A stretch of 24,000 nt of DNA from Kitasatospora sp. A2-31 (lineage in GTDB: Bacteria > Actinomycetota > Actinomycetes > Streptomycetales > Streptomycetaceae). The translations under genes and the position numbers were made by a program. The first letter of the stretch is position 1. Every line of letters starts with the position of its first letter. The stretch lies in assembly GCF_022288725.1 (NCBI RefSeq), contig NZ_JAKNTA010000013.1:6580-30579 (forward strand). The letters are read 5' to 3'. Shown here piece after piece: positions 5,306 to 13,376 of the stretch. The notes beneath the pieces were generated by a model that worked only from the letters and a program-made list of their open reading frames with translations, did not search any database and had not been told where the DNA came from.

Positions 5306-5336
5306 TCATCGGGTTGTCATCGGGCACTGGCACGGT
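5306..5336 (+). promoter_or_regulatory. SARP-box-like element: TCATCGG(5306-5312)-N4-TCATCGG(5317-5323)-N7-CACGGT (-10-like, A2/T6)
   Basis: Two identical heptamers (octamers TCATCGGG) have 11-bp periodicity and lie 75-105 nt upstream of the cutinase-like start codon. The 20-mer 5303-5322 is 19/20 identical to 6228-6247. Confidence 0.45.
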
Positions 5337-5410: not shown

Positions 5411-6079
5411 ATGCGAGCACGACGGATCGCGGCCGCGGCAGCCGGAATCCTGCTGACGGTCGGGCTGACAGCGGCACAGGGGGCCACGGCACAGGGGGCG
5501 CCCGCGCGCGTGACGGCTCCGTGCGAGGGCACCTACACGATCGTGGTCGGGGGCACCGGCAGCTCGTGGAACAACGACGGGTTCACCGGCAACATCCAGC
5601 AGCACGTCGGGTATCCCACCCAGATCCCCAACGGTGCCAGCACGCGGGCCGGCGTCAACGAGCTGAACCGGCTGGTCCGCGACCAGCGCGCCGCGTGCCC
5701 GGGCCAGCACGTCAAGATGGCCGGGTACTCGCTGGGAGCCGGTGTGGTGCACGTCTGGGTCACCGAGAACTGGCAGACCTTCGACAACGTCAACGCCATC
5801 CTCGTCTCGGACCCCAAGCGCCAGGGCCCGCCCGGGGCCAACGGCGGGGCCGTGCCGTTCGGCGGCATCATCGGAGCTCCGCTCGCGGGTGCCGACAGGT
5901 TCTTCGGCAACGTGCCCGTCAAGACGATCTGCCACTGGGACTACGTCTGCGACGAGTCCGCCGGGATCTGGACCTACCCGTACAACCACGTCCACAACTA
6001 CCCCGAAGACTTCAACATGGATCACCACAACGACAGCGCCAACGAGGTCTGGTACAACGGCGCCTGGTACCCCGCGTAG
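5411..6079 (+). CDS. secreted cutinase-family (cutinase/PE-PPE-like) serine hydrolase
   Basis: ATG 5411 follows GGGGAGGA. The N-terminal signal peptide is 'MRARRIAAAAAGILLTVGLTAAQGATAQG'. Cutinase-like order of blocks: 'CEGTYTIVVGGTGSS', 'ACPGQHVKMAGYSLGAGVV' (GYSxGA nucleophile elbow), 'AILVSDPKR', 'KTICHWDYVCDES'. Confidence 0.75.
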   Translation: MRARRIAAAAAGILLTVGLTAAQGATAQGAPARVTAPCEGTYTIVVGGTGSSWNNDGFTGNIQQHVGYPTQIPNGASTRAGVNELNRLVRDQRAACPGQHVKMAGYSLGAGVVHVWVTENWQTFDNVNAILVSDPKRQGPPGANGGAVPFGGIIGAPLAGADRFFGNVPVKTICHWDYVCDESAGIWTYPYNHVHNYPEDFNMDHHNDSANEVWYNGAWYPA

Positions 6080-6230: not shown

Positions 6231-6261
6231 TCATCGGGATGTCATCGACCCTTCCTAGCCT
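6231..6261 (+). promoter_or_regulatory. SARP-box-like element: TCATCGG(6231-6237)-N4-TCATCGA(6242-6248)-N7-TAGCCT (-10-like)
   Basis: Same architecture and spacing as 5306-5336. TAGCCT fits the Streptomyces TAnnnT -10 and lies 48 nt upstream of the acylase ATG. It sits downstream of the strong terminator at 6121-6168, so this is an independent transcription unit. Confidence 0.5.
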
Positions 6262-6308: not shown

Positions 6309-8810
6309 ATGGCACGGAGCAGACTCAAGGCGAGGCTGCCGATCGCGGTCATGGCCGCGACGGCACTGATGGGCACGGTGGCGGCAGCCGGGACACCGGG
6401 CACCGGGACCCCGGACGACAGGCGCCCGGCCGCCGTACGGGTGCCGGCGCCGGACCGACCGACGATCCGGTACACCGAGTACGGGATCCCGCACATCATC
6501 GCCTCGACCATGGAGGGACTGGGCGAGGGGTACGGCTACGCGGCGGCCAAGGACAACATCTGCACCCTGGCCGACACCTACCTGATGGTCAACGCCCAGC
6601 GGTCCCGCTACCTGGGGCCCGACGGCAGGGCGAGCCCCGGCCAGAACCAGAACAGCACCAGCAATCTCAACAGCGACCTCTACTTCCAGCGGATGAACGA
6701 CAACCGGGTGGTGGAGCGGCTGCTCGACCAGCCCGCCCCCAACGGGCCGGAGCCGGAGGTCAAGGAGGGCATCCGCGGCTACGTCCGGGGGTACAACCGC
6801 TACCTGGCCGAGACCGGCGTGAACAACCTCTCCGACCCGGCCTGCCGGGGCGCGGCCTGGGTGCGGCCGATCACCGAGCTGGACGTCTACCGGCACGCGC
6901 ACGCCGAGATCGTCATGGGCAGCGCCGATCCGCTGCTGGACGGCGAGGTGACCGCCGCACCCCCGGGGGCGCCGGGCGCCGCGCCGTCCCCCGCCGCGGC
7001 GCCGGCGGTCTCCCCCGAGGAGACCGCGGCGAAGATCCGCGAGGCGATGGCCGCGAGCCGGCAGCAGGGCAGCATGGGCAGCAACGCCCTGGCGGTCGGG
7101 TCGCAGGGGGTGGCCCCGGGCACCGGCACCAGCATGCTGCTGGCCAACCCGCACTTCCCGTGGCAGGGCAAGAACCGGATGTGGCAGAGCCAGCTGACGA
7201 TCCCGGGGAGGATCAACGTCTCCGGGGCCAGCCTGCTCGGACTCCCGGCGGTGAACATCGGGCACACCGACGACGTCGCCTGGAGCCACACCGTCGCCAC
7301 GGTGGCCCCGTTCGGGCTGTTCGACGTGCAGGTGGACCCGCTGCACCCGACCAGCTACCTGGTGGACGGCGGCTGGCAGCAGATGACCTCGCAGCAGGTC
7401 GGTGTCGACGTGCTGCAGCCGGACGGCTCCGTCGGCAGGGTCACCAGGACGCTGTGGTCCACCCGCTACGGCCCGATCACCACCTCGGTGCTCGGCGTCG
7501 CCCTGCCCTGGGTGGTGAGCGCCCACGCGGTGCGCGACGCGAACATGGACAACCTGCGGGCGTTGAACACCTGGTTCCACCTCGACCAGGCCAAGGACGT
7601 CGGCGACGTGGTGAGCACCCTGGAGACCACGCAGGGCGTGCCGTTCTTCAACACGGTCGCCTCCGACCGCAAGGGCAACGCGCTGTACGCGGACATCCAG
7701 GCCGCCCCGAACATCACCGATGCGCACGCGCAGTCCTGCCTGACCCTGACCGGCCAGGTGCTGTTCAACCAGCAGCTGCGGCTGCCCAACGTGCCGCCGG
7801 TCTCCGTCTTCGACGGCAAGCGCAGCGAGTGCGACTGGCCAAACGACCCGAACGCCGTCGCGCCGGGACTGCTGGACCCGCACAAGCAGCCGCGCCTGAT
7901 CCGGTCCGACTTCGTGGGCAACGCCAACGACAGCCCCTGGCTGGCCAACCCCGAGCAGCCGCTGTCCTTCCCCCGGGTGATGGGCGACAGTGCGGCGCCC
8001 CGCTCGCTGCGCACCCAGGAGCTGGTCCTGACCGCGCAGAACCGGATCAGCGGCAGTGACGGTCTGCCGGGCCGCGGCTTCACCCCGGAGACCATGCGGC
8101 AGTTGCTGTTCGCCGACGGCAGCAGGGCGGCCGACCTGGCCCTCGACGCCACCGTGACCACGTGCCGCAGCCAGCCCTTCGGGCTCGTCCTGGTGGACGG
8201 CAACCTGGTCGACGTGAGCGAGGCCTGCCCGGTCCTGGCCGCCTGGAACCACAAGTACACCGCGGACAGCCGGGGGTCCTGGCTGTTCGAGAACCTCTGG
8301 TACCTCCTGACCAACGGCCAGGCGATCGAGAAGCTGCCGTGGCGGGTGCCCTTCGATCCCAAGGACCCGGTGCACACGCCCAACTCGCTGGACCCCGGGA
8401 GCTCCGCCGTCCGTGACGCGCTCGGCCGGGCCGTCCTCGCGCTGCGCAAGGCGGGCGTTCCGCTGAACGCGCCGCTGTCGGACGTCCAGAGGATCACCCG
8501 CAACGCCGAACGGATCCCGATCCACGGCGCGATCCACGAACTGGGCGTGCTGAACGTGGTCACCCCCGGAACGGTCGACGGAAAGCTGGACATCACCTTC
8601 GGCTCCAGCTTCGTCCAGGAGACGCGGTTCACCGCCGACGGCCCGCCGCAGGCCGCCTCGCTGCTGGCCTACTCCCAGTCGGCGAACCCGAACTCGCCCC
8701 ACTACTCGGACCAGACCAGGCTGTTCTCGGCCGGTCAGTGGGTGACCGAACGCTACACCGAGGAGCAGATCGCGGCCTCACCGGCGCTGGAGATCAAGGT
8801 CCTGGACTGA
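6309..8810 (+). CDS. secreted Ntn-hydrolase of the penicillin amidase (S45) family: AHL acylase / aculeacin-A (lipopeptide) acylase-like
   Basis: ATG 6309 follows GGGGGAAGGA. Signal peptide 'MARSRLKARLPIAVMAATALMGTVAAAG'. Alpha-subunit start 'IRYTEYGIPHIIAS...GYGYAAAKDNICTLAD'. An Ala/Pro-rich spacer leads to 'QQGSMG|SNALAVGS' (beta-subunit N-terminal Ser nucleophile, codon at 7080-7082), then 'LLANPHFPW'. Confidence 0.85.
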   Translation: MARSRLKARLPIAVMAATALMGTVAAAGTPGTGTPDDRRPAAVRVPAPDRPTIRYTEYGIPHIIASTMEGLGEGYGYAAAKDNICTLADTYLMVNAQRSRYLGPDGRASPGQNQNSTSNLNSDLYFQRMNDNRVVERLLDQPAPNGPEPEVKEGIRGYVRGYNRYLAETGVNNLSDPACRGAAWVRPITELDVYRHAHAEIVMGSADPLLDGEVTAAPPGAPGAAPSPAAAPAVSPEETAAKIREAMAASRQQGSMGSNALAVGSQGVAPGTGTSMLLANPHFPWQGKNRMWQSQLTIPGRINVSGASLLGLPAVNIGHTDDVAWSHTVATVAPFGLFDVQVDPLHPTSYLVDGGWQQMTSQQVGVDVLQPDGSVGRVTRTLWSTRYGPITTSVLGVALPWVVSAHAVRDANMDNLRALNTWFHLDQAKDVGDVVSTLETTQGVPFFNTVASDRKGNALYADIQAAPNITDAHAQSCLTLTGQVLFNQQLRLPNVPPVSVFDGKRSECDWPNDPNAVAPGLLDPHKQPRLIRSDFVGNANDSPWLANPEQPLSFPRVMGDSAAPRSLRTQELVLTAQNRISGSDGLPGRGFTPETMRQLLFADGSRAADLALDATVTTCRSQPFGLVLVDGNLVDVSEACPVLAAWNHKYTADSRGSWLFENLWYLLTNGQAIEKLPWRVPFDPKDPVHTPNSLDPGSSAVRDALGRAVLALRKAGVPLNAPLSDVQRITRNAERIPIHGAIHELGVLNVVTPGTVDGKLDITFGSSFVQETRFTADGPPQAASLLAYSQSANPNSPHYSDQTRLFSAGQWVTERYTEEQIAASPALEIKVLD

Positions 8811-8854
8811 TGCTCCCGTTCCGCACGACGACGACACCGACGAGGGGAAACACC

Positions 8855-9937
8855 GTGACGAGGACATCGAGCCGGTGGCGCAGGGTGGTGGCCCTGGTGG
8901 CCGCCGTCCTGGCGACGGCCACCACGGCGGGTGCCGCACGTGCCGCCGCCGGCACGGGGGCGCCGCCGCCGATGGCGAACGGGTTCGGCCTGACCCAGGT
9001 CGAACCCGCCGTGGGCGGTCCGACCGACTTCTACCTGACCGTGACCACTCCCGAGGTCACCGGCCGGCACCACATCAAGATCATCCTGCCGAGCGGGTAC
9101 TACGACGACCCGACCAGGCGCTACCCCGTGCTGTACTTCCTGCACGGCTCACCCGACGACCCCGTCCAGCAGAACTATCCGGCGCTGACCATGTCCCACT
9201 CGATGATCACCGTCATCCCGGACGGCGGCGCCCGGGGCTGGTACGCCAACTGGCTCGACCAGAACACCCGGCTGGGAGCCCAGAACTGGGAGAACTTCCA
9301 CCTCCAGCAGGTGATCCCGTTCATCGACGCCAACCTGCGGACCGTCGCCGCCAAGAAGGCCAGGGCCGTCGCGGGCGTCTCCATGGGCGGCTTCGGCGCC
9401 CTCCACTACGCCCAGGACCACCCGGAACTGTTCGGCCAGACCGCGTCCCTGTCGGGCGACATCGATCTGTCGGCCGACTCCATGGACCTGAGGCTGGCCG
9501 TCGTCGCCTCCCTCATCGACGCCCAGGGCGCGCTCTGCGGCTCGTCCTCCGGATTCTGCGGCGACCCCGCGAACGACCCGTACAAGCCCGGCGTGGACAG
9601 CGACGCCCTGTTCGGCTCGCCCTACCCGGTGTTCAACGTGGACTGGCGTTGGAACGCGGCCGACCCGTCCCAGCACATGGACAGGCTCGCCGGGGTCGGG
9701 GTCTCCATCTACGTGGGCAACGGACGCGGCGTGCCCACCGACCTGGAGTTCTGGCTCGAAGGCGCGTCCAAGCACGTCAAGGACCGCATGGACGCCCTGG
9801 GCATGTCCTACCACTACGTCGACTACGGCGACGGCTCCGGCTGGGGCACCCAGTGCAACGGCGGCCACAACGCCGGCTGCTGGGAACAGGACCTCCGGGA
9901 CCTGATCCCCCGGCTCGAACGGGCCTTCGCCTCCTGA
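8855..9937 (+). CDS. secreted esterase (esterase D / antigen-85 mycolyltransferase-like alpha/beta hydrolase)
   Basis: GTG 8855 follows GAGGGGA. An alternative ATG at 8810 overlaps the acylase stop (TGATG). Signal peptide 'RWRRVVALVAAVLATATTAGAARAAAG'. Motifs: 'YPVLYFLHGS', 'VIPDGGARGWYANW', and 'AVAGVSMGGFGALHYA' (GxSxG). Probably co-transcribed with the acylase. Confidence 0.8.
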   Translation: MTRTSSRWRRVVALVAAVLATATTAGAARAAAGTGAPPPMANGFGLTQVEPAVGGPTDFYLTVTTPEVTGRHHIKIILPSGYYDDPTRRYPVLYFLHGSPDDPVQQNYPALTMSHSMITVIPDGGARGWYANWLDQNTRLGAQNWENFHLQQVIPFIDANLRTVAAKKARAVAGVSMGGFGALHYAQDHPELFGQTASLSGDIDLSADSMDLRLAVVASLIDAQGALCGSSSGFCGDPANDPYKPGVDSDALFGSPYPVFNVDWRWNAADPSQHMDRLAGVGVSIYVGNGRGVPTDLEFWLEGASKHVKDRMDALGMSYHYVDYGDGSGWGTQCNGGHNAGCWEQDLRDLIPRLERAFAS

Positions 9938-9960: not shown

Positions 9961-10008
9961 GGTCGGCCCAGGCCTCACCGCGCGGCCGCGGTGAGGCCGG
10001 GGCCGACC
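9961..10008. terminator. bidirectional hairpin between the convergent esterase (+) and LuxR-SARP (-) genes
   Basis: ggcctcaccgcg (9971-9982) pairs with cgcggtgaggcc (9987-9998) around a 4-nt loop. The stem is extended by ggtcggccc (9961-9969) pairing with gggccgacc (10000-10008). This gives about 21 bp with one mismatch and overlaps the last codons of the minus-strand gene. Confidence 0.55.
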
Positions 10009-11048
10009 TCGTCCCCGCTCAGGATCAGCCGGTGCGTCTGCCGCAGCAGCCGGCTCGGCGCAACCCCCAGGTCGTCGGCCAGCCGGCGGCGGGTGCGGTC
10101 GAACACGGCCAGGGCGTCGGCCTGTCGGCCGCTGCGGTACAGCGCGCGCATCAGCATCGCGGCCACCGGCTCGTTGAGGGGGTGCTCCGCGGCCAGGGCG
10201 AACAGCTCGGCCGCCGCCTCGCAGCACTGGCCCAGACCCAGCTGCCACTCCAACTTCCGCTGGGCGACGGCGATCCTGCGCTCGGCGAGCCGCAGCCGCT
10301 CCAACTCTGCCAGCGGGCCGGGCAGTCCGGCCAGGAGCTCGCCGCGGAACAGGTCCAGCGCCCGCGTGCAGAGGCGGACCGCCTCGGTCGGGTCGCCCGC
10401 CCGGTGGGCCGCCCCGGCGTCGGTGACCAGGCGCTCCATGCGCGCCAGGTCCACCTCGACCGCACCGGGCACCAGCCGGTATCCGCACCGGTCGTGCTCG
10501 ATCACCGAGTCCGGGCCGTCCCCGATGCGCAGGGTCTTGCGGAGGCGGTAGATGTGGACCGGTACCACGTTCGTGACCGGCTGATCCGAGCCCCAGACGC
10601 CGTCCAGCAGTTCCTGCTGGCTGACGGTCCGCCCCGCGTGCAGCGCCAGTGCCGCCAGCACGGCTTGCTGGCGCAGGTGTCCCAGCTCCAGGGACCGCCC
10701 GCCCCATCGGGCCCGCAGCGGGCCGAGTACGGAGATCTGCACCTTCGGTCCTGCCGTCGGGCGGACGGCGCTGCAAGGAAGCGACCCCGCTGCCGCCCGC
10801 GTGCGGGGGCCGCGGCCCGGGGCGACCACTCCGCAGTCGAAGGCGTGGACGATGGCGGCGGCCCGGTCGCGCAGCCCGAGCTTCCCGAGGATCCGCGCGA
10901 CGTGCCCGGCCACGGCCTCCTCGGAGATGGCGAGGACGGCGGCGATCTCGTCGTCCCGCAGGCCGCAGCCGACCGCGTGGAGCACGTCGCGCTCCCGGGG
11001 CCCGAGCACGACGGCGCTCGGCCGGCTGGTGGTGGCGTTCGTCGGCAT
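9975..11048 (-). CDS. hybrid transcriptional regulator: N-terminal LuxR/GerE-type HTH + SARP (OmpR-type winged helix + BTAD)
   Basis: ATG 11048 is preceded by AGGGAG. Residues ~15-75, 'LGPRERDVLHAVGCGLRDDEIAAVLAISEEAVAGHVARILGKLGLRDRAAAIVHAFDCGVV', form a GerE HTH. 'VQISVLGPLRARWGGRSLELGHLRQQAVLAALALHAGRTVSQQELLDGVWG...IYRLRKTL...GYRL' is the SARP wHTH. 'VDLARMERL...ALDLFRGELLAGLP...LMRALYRSGRQADALAVFDRTRRRLADDLGVAPS' is the BTAD. Confidence 0.8.
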   Translation of the reverse strand: MPTNATTSRPSAVVLGPRERDVLHAVGCGLRDDEIAAVLAISEEAVAGHVARILGKLGLRDRAAAIVHAFDCGVVAPGRGPRTRAAAGSLPCSAVRPTAGPKVQISVLGPLRARWGGRSLELGHLRQQAVLAALALHAGRTVSQQELLDGVWGSDQPVTNVVPVHIYRLRKTLRIGDGPDSVIEHDRCGYRLVPGAVEVDLARMERLVTDAGAAHRAGDPTEAVRLCTRALDLFRGELLAGLPGPLAELERLRLAERRIAVAQRKLEWQLGLGQCCEAAAELFALAAEHPLNEPVAAMLMRALYRSGRQADALAVFDRTRRRLADDLGVAPSRLLRQTHRLILSGDEVGPGLTAAAR

Positions 11049-11116
11049 CGCTGCTCCCTGGACTCCGGGCCGGCCGGTCCGGCGGACGCCGTCGACGGTA
11101 GTGACGGGGCCCCGGG

Positions 11117-11139
11117 CCCGGAATCCGGAACGATCCGGA
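11117..11139 (-). promoter_or_regulatory. clustered TCCGGA palindromes (minus strand: TCCGGAT-cgt-TCCGGAT-TCCGGG) upstream of the LuxR-SARP gene
   Basis: atccgga occurs at 11123-11129 and 11133-11139 (10-bp period), with a third tccggg-type copy adjacent. The cluster lies 70-90 nt upstream of the ATG at 11048. Function is unknown. Confidence 0.2.
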
Positions 11140-11172
11140 GGAGCACGCGCGGCCGGCCCTGCGTGCACCCGA

Positions 11173-11254
11173 TCAGGAGCAGCGGCAGACCCCTGCGGCC
11201 ACCCGGTGAGGACCGCCGGCAGACCCCTGCGGCCACCCGGTCAGGAGCAGCGGC
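11173..11254. repeat. about 2.4 copies of a 34-bp tandem repeat spanning the kinase stop codon and the kinase/SARP intergenic region
   Basis: Unit 1, 11173-11206: tcaggagcagcggcagacccctgcggccacccgg. Unit 2, 11207-11240: tgaggaccgccggcagacccctgcggccacccgg. Partial unit 3, 11241-11254: tcaggagcagcggc, which is the stop plus last codons (..GRCS*) of the kinase. Confidence 0.9.
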
Positions 11255-12602
11255 CCAGGGTGGGGTGGTCCTTGGTGCGGACGGCGGGGAGCCAGGCGGT
11301 GGTGGGGCCGGGGAGGTGGACGCGGTACCAGAGGGTGGAGGTGCGGTCCTCCTCGTCGATGACGGGGAGGCCGGTGGGGAGCTGGCAGTCGGCGTCGAGG
11401 AGGTCGCCGTGCCAGACACGGGTGGGAACGACGTTCCCGGCGGTGTAGGCGCGCAGGGGATCGACGGCGAGGCCGAGGCTGCACCGGGGGTCGCGGTCGG
11501 TGCGGTCCTGACAGCTGCGTTCGGCGTTGAAGACCCGGATGCGGGTGGGGTGTTCCGCCGGACCGGAGTGCGGCCAGAGCACGGTGGCGGCGACCGCGGC
11601 CGTGGCACAGGCGGCGAGGGCGAGCAGGGCGGTGCGCGGTCGTGGGCGACCACGACGGCGGCCGGACCGGTGCGCGCGGATCCGGGTGAGCAGGCTCTCG
11701 GCGGTGTGCGGGGCCCGCGCGGCGTGGGTGGGGGCGAGGCAGTCGGCGGCGAGGGCGCGCCAGAACGGTGGGACTTCGGGGGCCAGGCGCAGGGCGGCGC
11801 GGCCCTGGGCGTACTGCTGGGCGGCGGCGCTGCGGGCGGTGGGGGTGGCGCCGGGGAAGGGCGGGACACCGGCGGCGAACACCTCGTGGATCACGATGCC
11901 GAGCGCCCAGATGTCGGCGGTGGGGCGGATCTTGACGCCGTGTTCGCCGAGCGGCTCCCCCCAGCGCTCCGGCGGGAGGTAGTCGGGGGTGCCCATGGGG
12001 GCGGCGTGGCCGTGGGTGCCGGTGAGTTCGATGGCGAGGCCGAAGTCGGAGAGGCGGACCTCGCCGTCCTCGCCGATGAGGACGTTCTCGGGCTTGAGGT
12101 CGGTGTGGACCCAGCCGGAGCGGTGCAGGTGGGCCAGGCCCTCGCAGATGCCGGCGACGATCCGGCCGCCCCGGGCCTCGTCGACGCCGGTGGCGAGCAG
12201 GTCGCGCAGGGTGCCCCGGGCCCGTTCCATCACCAGCACGATCGCGCCGTCGAGCGCGGGGTGGTCGGGACAGTCCAGGACGAGGGTGTCGAGCAGGCGG
12301 ACCAGCCGGGGGTGCGGGGCGGTGCGGCCCAACTCGGCTTCGCGGCGAGCGGCTTCGGCGACCTGGCGGGCCTGGCGAGGGGCGAGTCCGGCGATCGGCA
12401 GCACCTTGAGCGCCACCGTGCCGTCCACGCCGGCCGTGCTGTCCGAGCCGTCGCAACGAGTGGGGTCGTCCGCCCGGCGGGCGGCGTAGACGGTGGCCCA
12501 TCCGCCCTCGCCGATGGGCTCGGTGACGATCCAGTCGCCGATCCGGTGACCGGCGGGCAGCAGTTCCTGGCCGGACCCGCGGAAGGCCGGGGCGTGCACC
12601 AT
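11241..12602 (-). CDS. single-pass transmembrane Hanks-type Ser/Thr protein kinase (non-RD: HTD catalytic loop) with Cys4 extracellular domain
   Basis: Kinase motifs: 'IGEGGWATVY' (G-loop), 'VALKVL' (beta3 Lys), 'HTDLKPENVL', 'LSDFGLA', 'GTPDYLPPE'. An Arg-rich stop-transfer segment 'RSGRRRGRPRPR' is followed by the TM helix 'TALLALAACATAAVAATVLW'. The C-terminal domain is about 110 aa and has 4 Cys. Confidence 0.85.
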   Translation of the reverse strand: MVHAPAFRGSGQELLPAGHRIGDWIVTEPIGEGGWATVYAARRADDPTRCDGSDSTAGVDGTVALKVLPIAGLAPRQARQVAEAARREAELGRTAPHPRLVRLLDTLVLDCPDHPALDGAIVLVMERARGTLRDLLATGVDEARGGRIVAGICEGLAHLHRSGWVHTDLKPENVLIGEDGEVRLSDFGLAIELTGTHGHAAPMGTPDYLPPERWGEPLGEHGVKIRPTADIWALGIVIHEVFAAGVPPFPGATPTARSAAAQQYAQGRAALRLAPEVPPFWRALAADCLAPTHAARAPHTAESLLTRIRAHRSGRRRGRPRPRTALLALAACATAAVAATVLWPHSGPAEHPTRIRVFNAERSCQDRTDRDPRCSLGLAVDPLRAYTAGNVVPTRVWHGDLLDADCQLPTGLPVIDEEDRTSTLWYRVHLPGPTTAWLPAVRTKDHPTLGRCS

Positions 12603-12608
12603 CGGGCC

Positions 12609-13376
12609 CTACCTTCGGGGCTCGGCGGCTTCGGGGCGCGGCAGGAGCGCCAGGTGCTCCTCACGAACGATGCCGAACTTCAGGGCGAGGCCCACGACGG
12701 CCTCGCGCTTCCCGCTGCGGCGGTCCGCGCGGCCCGCGTCGTCGGGCAGGTCGATGCGGAGCTTCTCGTCGGCGAGGTAGTCGAGGTGCGAGCTGACCGC
12801 GCGGGCGGTGAGCCGGGCGCAGGCGGGGTGGTCGCGCAGCCGCGCGACCACCTGGAGAGTGGTGGGTACGGCGGCGGGGGAGCGGTCACGCAGCCACGGC
12901 TCGCAGAGCGCGACCAGGACCAGGAAGTAGGTGGCGGTCTCGTCCAGCGAGTACGCCGTCATGGTACGACTCTCCCAGGAGCCGCCACCGCGGGCGTCCG
13001 GATCCAGGTAGACGTGGTCGGGCGCGAACACCTGGAAGGACAAAGGCGTTTCACGTCGTGAGGGCAGCACCACCCGGGAGAACTCGAACGGGATCGGCGC
13101 GCCGATGCGCCGCGGCGGCACCCGCAGGTACTCGCCGGCGCCCTCCGGGTTCTCCACCAGATAGGCGTGGGTGCTGCTGAGGTTGCTCAACTGCCAGTGG
13201 TCGTCGGTCGCGTGGATCTCGCCGGCGAGGCGGGACACCGTCTCGTCGCCGAGTCGGAGCTCCACCGGCGTGCCGGCGGAGCCGCGGCCGAAGCGCGCCC
13301 GCTCACCCGGACCGAGCCGCAAGGTCACCGCGTCCTGGCCGTTCCCCTCCGGCAGGTGGACGAGAATCCCGCTCAC
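12609..13376 (-). CDS. FHA-like domain protein (partly degenerate pThr-binding motif) with uncharacterised C-terminal helical domain
   Basis: GTG 13376 follows GGAGGA. 'RFGRGSAGTPVELRLGDETVSRLAGEIHATDDHWQLSNLSSTHAYLVEN' follows the FHA pattern GR...SR.H...S.NG..vN, with His->Ala and Asn->His substitutions. The stop is 6 nt before the kinase ATG, so the two form an operon. Confidence 0.55.
   Translation of the reverse strand: MSGILVHLPEGNGQDAVTLRLGPGERARFGRGSAGTPVELRLGDETVSRLAGEIHATDDHWQLSNLSSTHAYLVENPEGAGEYLRVPPRRIGAPIPFEFSRVVLPSRRETPLSFQVFAPDHVYLDPDARGGGSWESRTMTAYSLDETATYFLVLVALCEPWLRDRSPAAVPTTLQVVARLRDHPACARLTARAVSSHLDYLADEKLRIDLPDDAGRADRRSGKREAVVGLALKFGIVREEHLALLPRPEAAEPRR

What the first reader, a model, noticed from the sequence alone, without database searches (positions are those of the whole stretch)
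9975..11048. Small regulator carrying two different DNA-binding domains: N-terminal LuxR/GerE HTH fused to a complete SARP
The 357-aa product begins with a canonical GerE-type HTH ('RERDVLHAVGCGLRDDEIAAVLAISEEAVAGHVARILGKLGLRDRAAAIVHAF'). A Pro/Ala/Arg linker of about 35 aa follows, and then a full small SARP (OmpR-type winged helix plus BTAD). In established families the LuxR HTH is normally C-terminal, as an output domain of response regulators, LAL or MalT proteins. SARP-LAL hybrids such as PimR place the SARP first and are very large. A minimal HTH-first LuxR+SARP with no receiver, ATPase or ligand domain is an unusual architecture. It could read two operator types, for example the TCATCGG direct repeats and the palindromic TCCGGA cluster in its own upstream region. 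It is also an orphan SARP, since no PKS, NRPS or other biosynthetic core gene lies in the window.
Basis: partly seen in the sequence, partly recalled or inferred. Interest (0 to 1): 0.6.

Follow-up and report, generated by a model that had tools for sequence, protein, structure and literature searches.

The report
LuxR-headed SARP regulator of secreted hydrolases
This Kitasatospora gene encodes a real, conserved but unstudied activator of the antibiotic-regulator (SARP) type with an extra LuxR-type module in front, inherited from a two-component response regulator, and it most likely switches on neighbouring secreted lipid/ester-cleaving enzymes rather than an antibiotic pathway.

Summary
The 357-aa product of 9975-11048(-) has GerE, OmpR-type winged-helix and BTAD domains, all above Pfam thresholds. 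The ATG start, N-terminus, RBS and leader are conserved, and the LuxR-type part is translated under purifying selection.

The architecture is not rare. It occurs in about 8% of sampled Streptomycetaceae and in Pseudonocardiaceae, but neither of two SARP classifications I read lists it, and I found no characterised member.

Its origin explains the "HTH-first" order. Pseudonocardiaceae relatives are full REC-GerE-SARP response regulators with an overlapping HisKA_3 kinase gene, and the window's form lacks the receiver.

The SARP half keeps AfsR's fold and most DNA contacts.

Its own promoter carries a conserved TCCGGA-N4-TCCGGA palindrome, but palindrome type does not covary with the LuxR recognition helix. 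That helix lacks the canonical T-V-K, while the dimerisation helix is nearly invariant. The LuxR module is therefore more likely a dimerising tether than a second sequence reader. This remains unproven.

The parts
9975..11048 (-). Coding sequence of the 357-aa GerE-SARP regulator (stop codon 9975-9977, ATG 11046-11048)
   Evidence: ORF and translation. Domains. About 120 listed homologues of 69-90% identity with the same domains. Conserved N-terminus.
10824..11009 (-). LuxR/GerE-type four-helix module (residues 14-75). Recognition helix A-V-A-G-H-V-A-R. Helix 4 and its tail (LRDRAAAIVHAFDCG) are nearly invariant.
   Evidence: Pfam GerE 42.7 bits. AF2 helices 17-27, 32-39, 43-57, 62-71 with pLDDT about 75-95. 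Superposes on the VraR C-terminal domain, TM 0.89, rmsd 0.9 A over 62 columns. Mean entropy 0.56 bits, and 0.23 bits for helix 4 plus tail. CviR, VraR and NarL have T-V-K where this protein has A-V-A.
10743..10802 (-). Variable Pro/Ala/Arg-rich linker (residues 83-102)
   Evidence: pLDDT below 50 for residues 84-100. Entropy 1.75 bits, the highest of any internal region.
10464..10742 (-). OmpR-type winged-helix DNA-binding domain of the SARP (residues 103-195)
   Evidence: Trans_reg_C 52.5 bits. Aligned with AfsR: W74, P79, R92, R94 and K95 are conserved as W152, P157, R168, R170 and K171, while Q48 is R126 and T88 is I166.
10020..10454 (-). BTAD (bacterial transcriptional activation domain), residues 199-343
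   Evidence: Pfam 133.3 bits. The SARP body superposes on AfsR in the RNAP initiation complex (8K60, 8HVR) with TM 0.84-0.85 and rmsd 2.7 A over 250 columns.
11124..11139 (-). Conserved 6-4-6 palindrome TCCGGA-TCGT-TCCGGA in the regulator's own promoter, about 22 nt upstream of the -10-like hexamer
   Evidence: Nearly invariant in 9 aligned orthologous upstream regions even where the upstream neighbour differs. Only 3 exact sites of this pattern in the 9.29-Mb genome. Exact in 48 and within 1 mismatch in 57 of 60 type A loci, median 94 nt upstream of the ATG, and present in 0 of 19 type B loci.
11095..11100 (-). -10-like hexamer TACCGT of the regulator's own promoter (inferred)
   Evidence: Conserved block CACTACCTTGTCGACGGCG in orthologues. 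No transcription start data are available.
11054..11058 (-). Ribosome-binding site GGGAG, 5 nt before the ATG
   Evidence: Invariant in 9 orthologous loci.
5306..5323 (+). Candidate SARP box 1: TCATCGG-N4-TCATCGG (11-bp period), followed by 7 nt and CACGGT (5331-5336), 88 nt upstream of the cutinase ATG
   Evidence: The same arrangement lies before cutinase orthologues in the related loci.
6231..6248 (+). Candidate SARP box 2: TCATCGG-N4-TCATCGA, followed by 7 nt and TAGCCT (6256-6261), about 60 nt upstream of the acylase ATG
   Evidence: Conserved before acylase orthologues.
5411..6079 (+). Putative target gene: secreted cutinase-family hydrolase (222 aa)
   Evidence: Pfam Cutinase. Within 7 kb of the regulator in 49 of 80 family loci. 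A cutinase gene also precedes the kinase and REC-GerE-SARP genes in Amycolatopsis.
6309..8810 (+). Putative target gene: secreted Ntn-hydrolase acylase of the penicillin-amidase/PvdQ type (833 aa)
   Evidence: Pfam Penicil_amidase E=4e-123. Best NCBIfam model is the bifunctional acylase PvdQ, at 562 bits, below its 950-bit cutoff. Syntenic in 42 of 80 loci.
8738..9937 (+). Putative co-transcribed target: PF00756 esterase (start codon uncertain), convergent with the regulator gene
   Evidence: Pfam Esterase E=1e-30. Syntenic in 47 of 80 loci. It directly follows the acylase gene. An esterase of the same family precedes the kinase and regulator genes in L114.
11241..12602 (-). Ser/Thr protein kinase gene directly upstream, on the same strand; a possible lineage-specific input
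   Evidence: Pfam Pkinase E=3e-35. Present upstream of the regulator in only 28 of 80 loci, mostly Kitasatospora.
12609..13376 (-). 255-aa protein of unknown function that travels with the kinase gene
   Evidence: No Pfam hit at E<=0.001. Only a sub-threshold FHA-fold hit (Yop-YscD_cpl, E=0.006, 17 bits against a cutoff of 33). Syntenic with the kinase in 27 of 80 loci.

Best explanation
The gene encodes a compact member of an unstudied SARP subfamily that carries an N-terminal LuxR/GerE-type module.

Shown:
- All three domains are present, folded in the model, translated and under purifying selection.
- The family is one clade. It also contains full REC-GerE-SARP response regulators of Pseudonocardiaceae, which are paired with HisKA_3 kinases.

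Inferred with good support:
- The SARP half works like the AfsR SARP domain. Two protomers sit side by side on two TCATCGG repeats 11 bp apart that replace the -35 element, 7-8 nt upstream of a weak -10. From there they recruit RNA polymerase to the neighbouring promoters for a secreted cutinase and a PvdQ-like acylase with its downstream esterase.
- The regulon is therefore a small set of secreted acyl/ester hydrolases, not an antibiotic cluster.

Inferred with moderate support:
- The LuxR-type module is the former output domain of a NarL/VraR-type response regulator to which a small SARP was fused, and the receiver was later lost.
- Its main remaining role is to dimerise through its nearly invariant helix 4. 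This holds two otherwise monomeric SARP modules together on a flexible linker and favours cooperative box binding. It is less likely to read a second operator.
- Expression of the regulator is controlled at its own promoter through the conserved TCCGGA-N4-TCCGGA palindrome, by a binder that is still unidentified.
- In Kitasatospora the upstream Ser/Thr kinase may add an input.
For: - **Domains and fold:**
- **Start codon and selection:**
- **SARP DNA-contact residues:** W, P, R, R and K are conserved relative to AfsR.
- **Box geometry:** it matches the published SARP rule of direct repeats at 11-bp spacing with the 3' repeat 8 bp from the -10 (sequences).
- **Box specificity in this genome:** the exact pattern occurs at 3 sites in 9.29 Mb. 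Two are these promoters, and the third is an unrelated infB leader element.
- **Box-regulator co-occurrence:** 57 of 60 hydrolase-linked loci have at least one box, with 76 exact boxes in 0.85 Mb. The three loci without a box are cut by contig ends. Within the genus, regulator-positive genomes have about 2.8 extra exact boxes each against about 0.5 in regulator-negative genomes (hand tally).
- **Deep conservation:** boxes and hydrolase genes also accompany the REC-bearing relatives.
- **REC ancestry:** 49% identity across GerE, linker and SARP to a Kutzneria REC-GerE-SARP protein. There is a whole family of such proteins. The HisKA_3 gene overlaps the regulator gene by 4 nt in 4 of 4 loci. REC forms are basal in the tree.
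- **Dimeriser reading:** helix 4 plus its tail is the most conserved segment (0.23 bits) and resembles the VraR dimerisation helix, whereas the recognition helix varies across the superfamily and lacks T-V-K. SARP is monomeric in solution and dimerises only on DNA.
Against: - There is no binding, expression or transcription-start data. The tool for sequencing runs was unavailable.
- The A-V-A-G-H recognition helix is itself well conserved within Streptomycetaceae, which could mean that it still reads DNA.
- The own-promoter palindrome has the 6-4-6 geometry typical of LuxR-type dimers. It is not a genome-wide motif, and in type A loci no other linked regulator is conserved, so self-binding remains a natural candidate.
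- The deep nodes of the tree have weak support (47-54), so receiver loss rather than gain is not proven.
- Dimerisation by the GerE module is inferred from homology only. The AF2 monomer model gives no information on it.
- Q48 and T88 of AfsR are changed, and the SARP recognition helix is two residues shorter.
Confidence: 0.5

Rival explanations
1. Dual reader. One polypeptide uses two independent DNA-reading heads. The LuxR-type module binds as a dimer to the TCCGGA-N4-TCCGGA palindrome centred near -43 of its own promoter, giving autoregulation. The SARP half binds the TCATCGG direct repeats at the hydrolase promoters.
For: - The palindrome is exact in 48 and near-exact in 57 of 60 type A loci, at a fixed distance from the ATG. 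It travels with the gene whatever lies upstream.
- Only 3 such sites exist in the genome, about what chance gives, so it is not a global regulator's motif.
- The 6-4-6 inverted-repeat geometry suits LuxR-type dimers (my own knowledge of LiaR/NarL-type sites).
- The GerE module is confidently folded and under purifying selection.
Against: - Type B relatives have a different palindrome (ACCGGCCG-N4-CGGCCGGT) but the same recognition helix. AVAGHLAR is the commonest variant in both types.
- None of 47 positions in helices 2-4 discriminates the two types.
- Within type A, Gly to Glu at a DNA-facing position occurs with an unchanged palindrome.
- The Thr and Lys that are canonical in CviR, VraR and NarL are both Ala here.
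- In type B, a divergently encoded XRE-NACHT protein is an alternative binder.
Confidence: 0.25
2. The LuxR-type module is a protein-contact or autoinhibitory domain. It resembles sigma region 4 and docks either on the SARP body or on RNA polymerase, modulating the sigma-adaptation step. It neither binds DNA nor dimerises.
For: - There are weak Pfam hits to Sigma70_r4 and Sigma70_r4_2 (E=0.013-0.027).
- In AfsR complexes, sigma region 4 sits on top of the SARP dimer.
- The extra domains of large SARPs inhibit the SARP domain.
- Helix 4 is nearly invariant, which suggests a protein interface.
Against: - The sigma-region-4 hits are far below threshold.
- The helix 4 motif is the ordinary VraR/LiaR-type dimerisation motif.
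- A pTM of 0.72 with a disordered linker gives no sign of a fixed intramolecular dock.
- There is no direct evidence.
Confidence: 0.12
3. The TCATCGG boxes belong to a different regulator, and this protein controls unlinked genes. The association with the hydrolase genes is mere synteny.
For: - No binding data exist.
- The genome encodes many other SARP-domain proteins.
- A TCATCG triple repeat exists in every Streptomycetaceae genome.
Against: - The universal repeat lies in the ylxR-infB leader, in antisense orientation, and is unrelated.
- Boxes occur next to the regulator gene in three different gene contexts and in two bacterial families.
- Boxes are enriched in regulator-positive genomes of the same genus.
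- The box geometry is SARP-specific.
Confidence: 0.08

Closest known systems
AfsR SARP domain of Streptomyces coelicolor (PDB 8HVR, 8JKE, 8K60) and its afs box
   Same: - The winged helix plus BTAD is 45% identical, with TM 0.84-0.85.
- DNA contacts W74, P79, R92, R94 and K95 are conserved.
- The candidate sites share the layout: two direct repeats 11 bp apart overlapping the -35 region, 8 bp from a weak -10. The cutinase promoters here even show afsS-like CACNGT hexamers.
   Different: - AfsR has C-terminal NOD and TPR domains and nothing in front of the SARP. Here there is an N-terminal LuxR-type module and nothing behind.
- The box sequence differs (TCATCGG).
- Q48 and T88 are changed.
- The likely targets are secreted hydrolase genes, not afsS.
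Small SARPs (ActII-ORF4, RedD, DnrI, CcaR and others)
   Same: Similar size class, the same winged-helix plus BTAD core, and no ATPase domain.
   Different: - By definition these contain only the two SARP domains and are mostly situated in biosynthetic clusters (82% in a 2025 survey).
- This protein has a third domain and lies outside any biosynthetic cluster.
NarL/FixJ-type response regulators, closest to the VraR/LiaR type
   Same: - The N-terminal module is a GerE domain, with TM 0.89 to the VraR C-terminal domain.
- It carries a VraR-like helix 4 motif.
- Relatives still have the receiver and a cognate HisKA_3 kinase.
   Different: - The window's protein has no receiver and no adjacent histidine kinase.
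- The recognition helix has A-V-A in place of T-V-K.
- A complete SARP is appended.
REC-GerE-SARP proteins of Pseudonocardiaceae (Amycolatopsis, Kutzneria; uncharacterised, e.g. QUQ67150.1)
   Same: - Homologous across GerE, linker and SARP, at 49% identity.
- They fall in the same clade.
- TCATCG-type boxes and cutinase or esterase genes lie nearby.
   Different: - They carry an N-terminal receiver and are translationally coupled to a HisKA_3 kinase.
- Many keep T/A-V-K in the recognition helix.
EmbR of Mycobacterium tuberculosis (PDB 2FEZ) with the kinase PknH
   Same: - A SARP core that controls non-antibiotic genes.
- It has one extra domain and is linked to a Ser/Thr kinase.
- The folds match.
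   Different: - EmbR's extra domain is a C-terminal FHA domain.
- Here the extra domain is an N-terminal GerE module, and the kinase neighbour is present in only about a third of the family's loci.
SARP-LAL regulators (PimR, SanG, FilR)
   Same: Both combine SARP and LuxR-family ancestry.
   Different: SARP-LALs are large, place the SARP first, carry an AAA ATPase, and lack the LuxR HTH altogether. This protein has none of those features.

Membership tests
SARP (Streptomyces antibiotic regulatory protein) family | OmpR-type winged-helix DNA-binding domain (Pfam Trans_reg_C) | tested here: met
   52.5 bits against a cutoff of 26.2, residues 126-192.
SARP (Streptomyces antibiotic regulatory protein) family | BTAD directly following the winged helix | tested here: met
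   133.3 bits against a cutoff of 22.1, residues 199-343.
SARP (Streptomyces antibiotic regulatory protein) family | Fold of the SARP domain as in AfsR and EmbR | tested here: met
   The AF2 model against 8K60 and 8HVR gives TM 0.84-0.85 and rmsd 2.7 A over 250 columns. Against EmbR the TM is 0.60-0.63.
SARP (Streptomyces antibiotic regulatory protein) family | Conserved DNA-contacting residues of the winged helix (AfsR Q48, W74, P79, T88, R92, R94, K95) | tested here: inconclusive
   Five of seven are kept (W152, P157, R168, R170, K171). Q48 is R126 and T88 is I166, and there is a 2-residue deletion in the recognition helix.
SARP (Streptomyces antibiotic regulatory protein) family | Target promoters with heptamer direct repeats at 11-bp (or 22-bp) spacing, the 3' repeat about 8 bp from the -10 | tested here: met
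   Two such promoters lie in the window. A consensus was derived from 18 promoters, and 101 boxes were found in 57 of 60 related loci. Binding itself was not tested.
SARP (Streptomyces antibiotic regulatory protein) family | Activates transcription by binding these repeats and recruiting RNAP | not testable with these tools
   This needs EMSA, in vitro transcription or genetics.
Small SARP subclass | Consists only of the winged helix and BTAD (about 300 aa) | tested here: not met
   An additional GerE domain and a linker occupy residues 1-102.
LuxR/GerE HTH family (PF00196) | Profile match above the curated threshold | tested here: met
   42.7 bits against a cutoff of 23.5, covering 56 of 57 profile positions.
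LuxR/GerE HTH family (PF00196) | Four-helix fold with a helix-turn-helix | tested here: met
   AF2 gives four helices with pLDDT about 75-95. TM 0.89 and rmsd 0.9 A to the VraR C-terminal domain 7VE5.
LuxR/GerE HTH family (PF00196) | Canonical recognition-helix motif T-V-K/R-x-H, which carries the base and phosphate contacts | tested here: not met
   The query has A-V-A-G-H, whereas CviR, VraR and NarL have T-V-K-x-H. A47 is nearly invariant in the family. That these NarL positions contact bases is from my own knowledge of the NarL-DNA structures.
LuxR/GerE HTH family (PF00196) | Sequence-specific DNA binding as a dimer | not testable with these tools
   The indirect covariation test was negative.
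NarL/FixJ-type two-component response regulator | N-terminal receiver domain with a cognate histidine kinase | tested here: not met
   There is no Response_reg hit in the window's protein and no histidine kinase in the window. Relatives have both.
SARP-LAL (PimR type) | N-terminal SARP followed by an AAA/LAL ATPase region, large size, no LuxR HTH | tested here: not met
   The protein is 357 aa, has no AAA domain, and has the LuxR HTH at the N-terminus.

The most novel reading that the evidence does not exclude
A single 357-aa polypeptide carries two independent DNA-reading heads used at two promoter classes. A LuxR-type dimer reads the TCCGGA-N4-TCCGGA palindrome centred near -43 of its own promoter, giving class-II-like autoregulation. 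A SARP pair reads TCATCGG direct repeats in place of the -35 at the hydrolase promoters. The same LuxR module also couples phosphorylation to SARP activity in the receiver-bearing relatives. That would make two-component control of a SARP a previously undescribed signalling route.
Probability: 0.25. Interest if true: 0.7.

Novelty: new variant of a known kind. Interest (0 to 1): 0.55.

Why it matters
SARPs are the best-known activators of antibiotic gene clusters and are widely used to awaken silent clusters. Their accepted classes are small, medium, large and SARP-LAL. This family adds two unrecognised forms: REC-GerE-SARP and its receiver-less derivative GerE-SARP.

It matters for three reasons:
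- It points to a direct wiring of histidine-kinase signalling into a SARP.
- It gives a clear case of a SARP whose conserved regulon is a set of secreted cutinase, acylase and esterase enzymes, not a biosynthetic pathway. That cautions against using SARP genes as simple beacons for antibiotic clusters.
- It offers a compact system for an open question raised by the AfsR structures, namely how small SARPs that are monomeric in solution are assembled on their boxes. The system has a 357-aa protein, two nearby promoters, a 17-nt box and a 16-nt palindrome.

The target enzymes (cutinase-like, PvdQ/AhlM-like acylase) are also of interest for polyester degradation and for cleavage of acyl-homoserine lactones or lipopeptides.

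Tried and rejected
1. **Sequencing runs.** I looked for RNA or DNA runs to map the transcription start and test the start codon.
2. **Second element beside the boxes.** I looked for a second conserved (LuxR-type) element next to the SARP boxes by aligning 18 box promoters in register. Nothing is conserved upstream of the box.
3. **Helix-palindrome covariation.** The first small sample hinted at a difference at the position equivalent to NarL K192. The 80-locus census removed it.
4. **Other box-like sites in the genome.** I inspected sites with 1 mismatch (C112, C256, C234, C90, and C35:171894). They lie inside genes or lack a plausible downstream gene, so I did not count them as targets.
5. 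**The third exact site.** The exact box site at C1:1052298 looked like a further target. It is a universally conserved element in the ylxR-infB leader, in antisense orientation.
6. **Two-stretch matches.** Many matches in the representative search come in two stretches, which suggested further X-GerE-SARP fusions. They are tandem SARP-SARP proteins.
7. **Internal start near residue 103.** This is not needed to explain the data, because the GerE region is under purifying selection at the protein level. A minor SARP-only isoform cannot be excluded, because the codon there is GTG, TTG or ATG in 55 of 80 genes.
8. **FHA claim for the 255-aa neighbour.** There is only a sub-threshold hit.
9. **Literature.** Searches for a described LuxR-SARP hybrid or for SARP control of a cutinase found nothing relevant.
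Full report
**1. Observation.**
The minus-strand ORF 9975..11168 is real, and the ATG at 11048 gives a 357-aa product. Pfam finds three domains, all above their gathering thresholds:

| Domain | Residues | Score (bits) | Cutoff (bits) |
|---|---|---|---|
| GerE | 14-69 | 42.7 | 23.5 |
| Trans_reg_C | 126-192 | 52.5 | 26.2 |
| BTAD | 199-343 | 133.3 | 22.1 |

NCBIfam agrees in kind. There are partial matches to AfsR over residues 79-347, and to NarP, NarL and similar regulators over residues 6-75. All are far below the full-length cutoffs.

An AlphaFold2 model built on 72 family members has mean pLDDT 82.9 and pTM 0.72. It shows a confident four-helix module (helices 17-27, 32-39, 43-57 and 62-71), a disordered linker (residues 84-100) and a confident SARP body. 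The SARP body superposes on AfsR in the RNA polymerase initiation complexes 8K60 and 8HVR (TM 0.84-0.85, rmsd 2.7 A over 250 columns). The N-terminal module superposes on the VraR LuxR-type domain (TM 0.89, rmsd 0.9 A over 62 columns) (sequence matches).

**2. Start codon.**
Three results argue against it.
- The N-terminus MPTTATT is conserved and no homologue extends further.
- The RBS GGGAG and about 50 nt of leader are nearly invariant in nine orthologous loci.
- Against its type A orthologues, the GerE region has the lowest divergence at codon positions 1 and 2 (0.09 per site, against 0.17 at position 3). Its mean column entropy is 0.56 bits, compared with 0.66 for the winged helix, 0.67 for BTAD and 1.75 for the linker.

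The LuxR-type module is therefore translated and under purifying selection. One oddity remains. Codon 103, the first residue of the SARP body, is GTG, TTG or ATG in 55 of 80 genes and otherwise a very rare codon (GTA, TTA, ATA, CTA). A minor internal start cannot be excluded.

**3. How common is the architecture?**
It is not rare.
- A search of 5.8 billion clustered proteins returned 565 hits. The best 120 are 69-90% identical, 341-393 aa long, nearly all with the same three domains, from Kitasatospora and Streptomyces. They are named only as BTAD domain-containing putative transcriptional regulators.
- In an even sample of 201 Streptomycetaceae genomes, full-length matches occur in about 15 genomes besides the window's own, roughly 8%. 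One genome has three copies. In all other genomes only the SARP part matches, in AfsR-like proteins of about 1000 aa.
- A scan of one genome per prokaryotic species found 273 loci encoding a relative. The best 80 are all full length, and the nearest is Kitasatospora hibisci at 90% identity.
- Compact members also occur in Amycolatopsis, Kutzneria, Saccharomonospora, Solihabitans and Actinocatenispora.

The form is nevertheless not a described class. A 2024 review lists small, medium, large and SARP-LAL types. A 2025 survey of 128,993 regulators from 440 Streptomyces genomes lists the same types plus "other", with no GerE-containing subclass in its supplementary table. Full-text searches found no described LuxR-SARP hybrid of this kind.

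**4. Origin of the HTH-first order.**
The exhaustive search of 50%-identity representatives found a 505-aa Kutzneria protein with Response_reg, GerE, Trans_reg_C and BTAD domains. It is 49% identical to the window's protein across GerE, linker and SARP. Searching with it revealed a family of such REC-GerE-SARP proteins, 476-541 aa long, in Pseudonocardiaceae.

In all four of these loci that I read, a HisKA_3 histidine-kinase gene overlaps the regulator's start by 4 nt, the usual layout of a NarL-type two-component pair.

A maximum-likelihood tree of the shared SARP region puts all GerE-bearing proteins in one clade.
- REC forms are basal and paraphyletic.
- Streptomycetaceae compact forms are a supported clade (97) nested among compact Pseudonocardiaceae forms.
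- The deep nodes are weak (47-54).

The simplest reading is that a complete NarL/VraR-type response regulator was fused to a small SARP and the receiver was later lost. The LuxR HTH is "first" only because it was the C-terminal output domain of the upstream partner.

**5. What the SARP half most likely does.**
Two nearly identical 20-nt elements lie in front of the neighbouring genes.

| Position | Gene downstream | Repeats | After the second repeat |
|---|---|---|---|
| 5306-5323 | cutinase | TCATCGG twice, 11 bp apart | 7 nt, then CACGGT |
| 6231-6248 | penicillin-amidase/PvdQ-type acylase | TCATCGG and TCATCGA, 11 bp apart | 7 nt, then TAGCCT |

This is the published SARP promoter rule: direct repeats at 11-bp spacing with the 3' repeat 8 bp from the -10. 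The afsS -10 is CACTGT.

- **Specificity.** The exact pattern TCATCG-N5-TCATCG occurs at only three sites in the 9.29-Mb genome. I calculate about 0.25 expected from base composition. Two sites are these promoters. The third is a universally conserved element in the ylxR-infB leader in the opposite orientation, unrelated to SARPs.
- **Conservation.** The boxes travel with the regulator. A first set of 17 loci had 10 exact and 6 one-mismatch boxes in 266 kb. Their in-register consensus is T-TCATCGGGAT(T/G)TCATCG-G-N7-TAnnnT. In the 80-locus set, 57 of 60 hydrolase-linked loci have at least one box (101 boxes, 76 exact, in 0.85 Mb). The three loci without a box are cut by contig ends.
- **Genes downstream of boxes.** These are the cutinase, the acylase (with a PF00756 esterase directly behind it) and, in many Streptomyces, a secreted FG-GAP protein of about 560 aa.
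- **Within-genus contrast.** Within the window's genus, regulator-positive genomes carry about 2.8 exact boxes beyond the infB element, against about 0.5 in regulator-negative genomes. This is my hand tally, and related genomes are not independent.
- **Depth of the link.** In Amycolatopsis a cutinase gene with a TCATCGG/TCATGAT box precedes the kinase and REC-GerE-SARP genes. In another Pseudonocardiaceae genome a PF00756 esterase with such a box does so.
- **DNA contacts.** Of the AfsR DNA contacts, W74, P79, R92 (the base-specific contact), R94 and K95 are conserved. Q48 and T88 differ, which fits a different box sequence.

I conclude, by inference and without binding data, that the SARP half activates these local promoters as AfsR activates afsS. 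I read it only after finding them independently.

**6. The regulator's own promoter.**
- The 16-mer TCCGGA-TCGT-TCCGGA (11124-11139) is nearly invariant in nine orthologues even where the upstream neighbour differs. It is followed by a conserved -10-like block and leader.
- Genome-wide there are only three exact sites of this pattern.
- In the census it is exact in 48 and within one mismatch in 57 of 60 hydrolase-linked ("type A") loci, at a median of 94 nt before the ATG.
- A second group of 19 loci ("type B") has a divergent XRE-NACHT gene and a downstream DUF6585 gene. These loci never have this element. Instead, 17 of 19 have an 8-4-8 palindrome, ACCGGCCG-N4-CGGCCGGT, at the equivalent place.

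**7. Does the LuxR-type helix read these palindromes?**
The evidence leans against it.
- The commonest recognition-helix variant, AVAGHLAR, is the same in type A (19 loci) and type B (9 loci).
- None of the 47 positions of helices 2-4 discriminates the two types, although 14 positions in the SARP domains do.
- Within type A, Gly to Glu at a DNA-facing position coexists with an unchanged palindrome.
- Within type B the palindrome is constant while the helix varies.
- CviR, VraR and NarL all have T-V-K-x-H where this family has A-V-A-G-H. The Kutzneria REC form keeps T-V-R, and many REC forms keep T/A-V-K.
- Helix 4 and its tail are the most conserved 24 residues of the whole protein (0.23 bits). 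They are nearly invariant across the entire superfamily and resemble the helix that forms the dimer interface in VraR/NarL-type regulators.

The AfsR work reports that the SARP domain is monomeric in solution and dimerises only on DNA. The most economical role for the module is therefore a dimerising tether that pre-assembles two SARP heads. In the receiver-bearing relatives this would make assembly depend on phosphorylation.

The case is not closed. The A-V-A-G-H helix is itself conserved, the 6-4-6 palindrome has LuxR-type geometry, and no other linked regulator is conserved in type A loci. I give the dimeriser role about 45%, dual reading about 25%, and other roles the rest.

**8. Other inputs.**
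The Ser/Thr kinase gene (11241-12602) and the 255-aa gene upstream of it accompany the regulator in only 28 and 27 of 80 loci, mostly in Kitasatospora. An AfsK/AfsR-like or PknH/EmbR-like input is therefore at most lineage-specific. The 255-aa protein gives only a sub-threshold hit to an FHA-fold family.

**9. Verdict.**
- The protein is a member of the SARP family by domains, fold and promoter logic, but not of the "small SARP" class as that class is defined.
- It is a member of the LuxR/GerE fold family, with an atypical recognition helix.
- The architecture is common in databases and has an ordinary evolutionary origin.
- It is uncharacterised and missing from current SARP classifications, and it appears to control secreted hydrolases instead of a biosynthetic cluster.

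I rate it a new variant of a known kind, with interest 0.55.

Noticed in passing
G000:C1:1052287-1052325 (outside the window): A three- to four-fold TCATCG repeat with an 11-nt period lies in the ylxR-infB intergenic leader. It is present with almost the same sequence in essentially all 201 sampled Streptomycetaceae genomes. It reads as CGATGAG repeats on the infB sense strand. Its function is unknown, possibly a leader RNA or a regulatory element for IF2 expression.
   Followed up: partly
window 11157-11254: Three copies of a 34-bp tandem repeat span the kinase stop codon and fill part of the kinase-regulator intergenic region. The aligned orthologues lack the expansion, so it is specific to this genome.
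   Followed up: partly
window 10740-10742 (codon 103 of the regulator) and the same position in L030-L109: The first codon of the SARP body is start-capable (GTG 44, TTG 8, ATG 3) or very rare for these genomes (GTA 11, TTA 4, ATA 2, CTA 2). TTA codons, which depend on the bldA tRNA in Streptomyces, occur somewhere in 7 of 61 type A genes and 4 of 19 type B genes, but not in the window's gene.
   Followed up: partly
L060-L062, L064, L066, L068 and others (type B loci); also L019, L024: A second conserved context for the same regulator family has a divergent XRE-HTH-NACHT NTPase gene (about 780 aa) upstream and a DUF6585 gene directly downstream. An 8-4-8 palindrome ACCGGCCG-N4-CGGCCGGT lies in the shared intergenic region, and box-like TCATCG repeats lie behind DUF6585.
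   Followed up: partly
L018:5485-7164, L022:10172-11857 and about 30 of the loci L030-L109: A secreted protein of about 560 aa with FG-GAP repeats is often divergent from the cutinase gene. It has its own variant box, CCATCGGTATTTCATCG, followed by TACTGT or TACCGT.
   Followed up: partly
L113:10571-10587: In Amycolatopsis benzoatilytica, a TCATCG-type box near the REC-GerE-SARP gene lies in front of an ESX/WXG100-like operon (EspG, EspC, YbaB), and an IS110 transposase sits just upstream of the kinase gene.
   Followed up: no
L110:3880-3930: A long, AT-rich, near-perfect inverted repeat (CTTGAATGACTCATTCAGG ... CCTGAATGAGTCATTCAAG) lies about 170 nt upstream of the box of the Amycolatopsis cutinase gene. 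It could be a terminator of the preceding gene or an operator.
   Followed up: no
window 12609-13376: The 255-aa protein that travels with the Ser/Thr kinase has no Pfam family above threshold. There is only a weak hit to the FHA-fold family Yop-YscD_cpl (E=0.006).
   Followed up: partly
G146 (contigs C63, C51, C41; loci L017, L023, L027): One Kitasatospora genome carries three paralogues of the GerE-SARP regulator in three different contexts, one of them next to a gene with a weak Condensation-domain hit.
   Followed up: no
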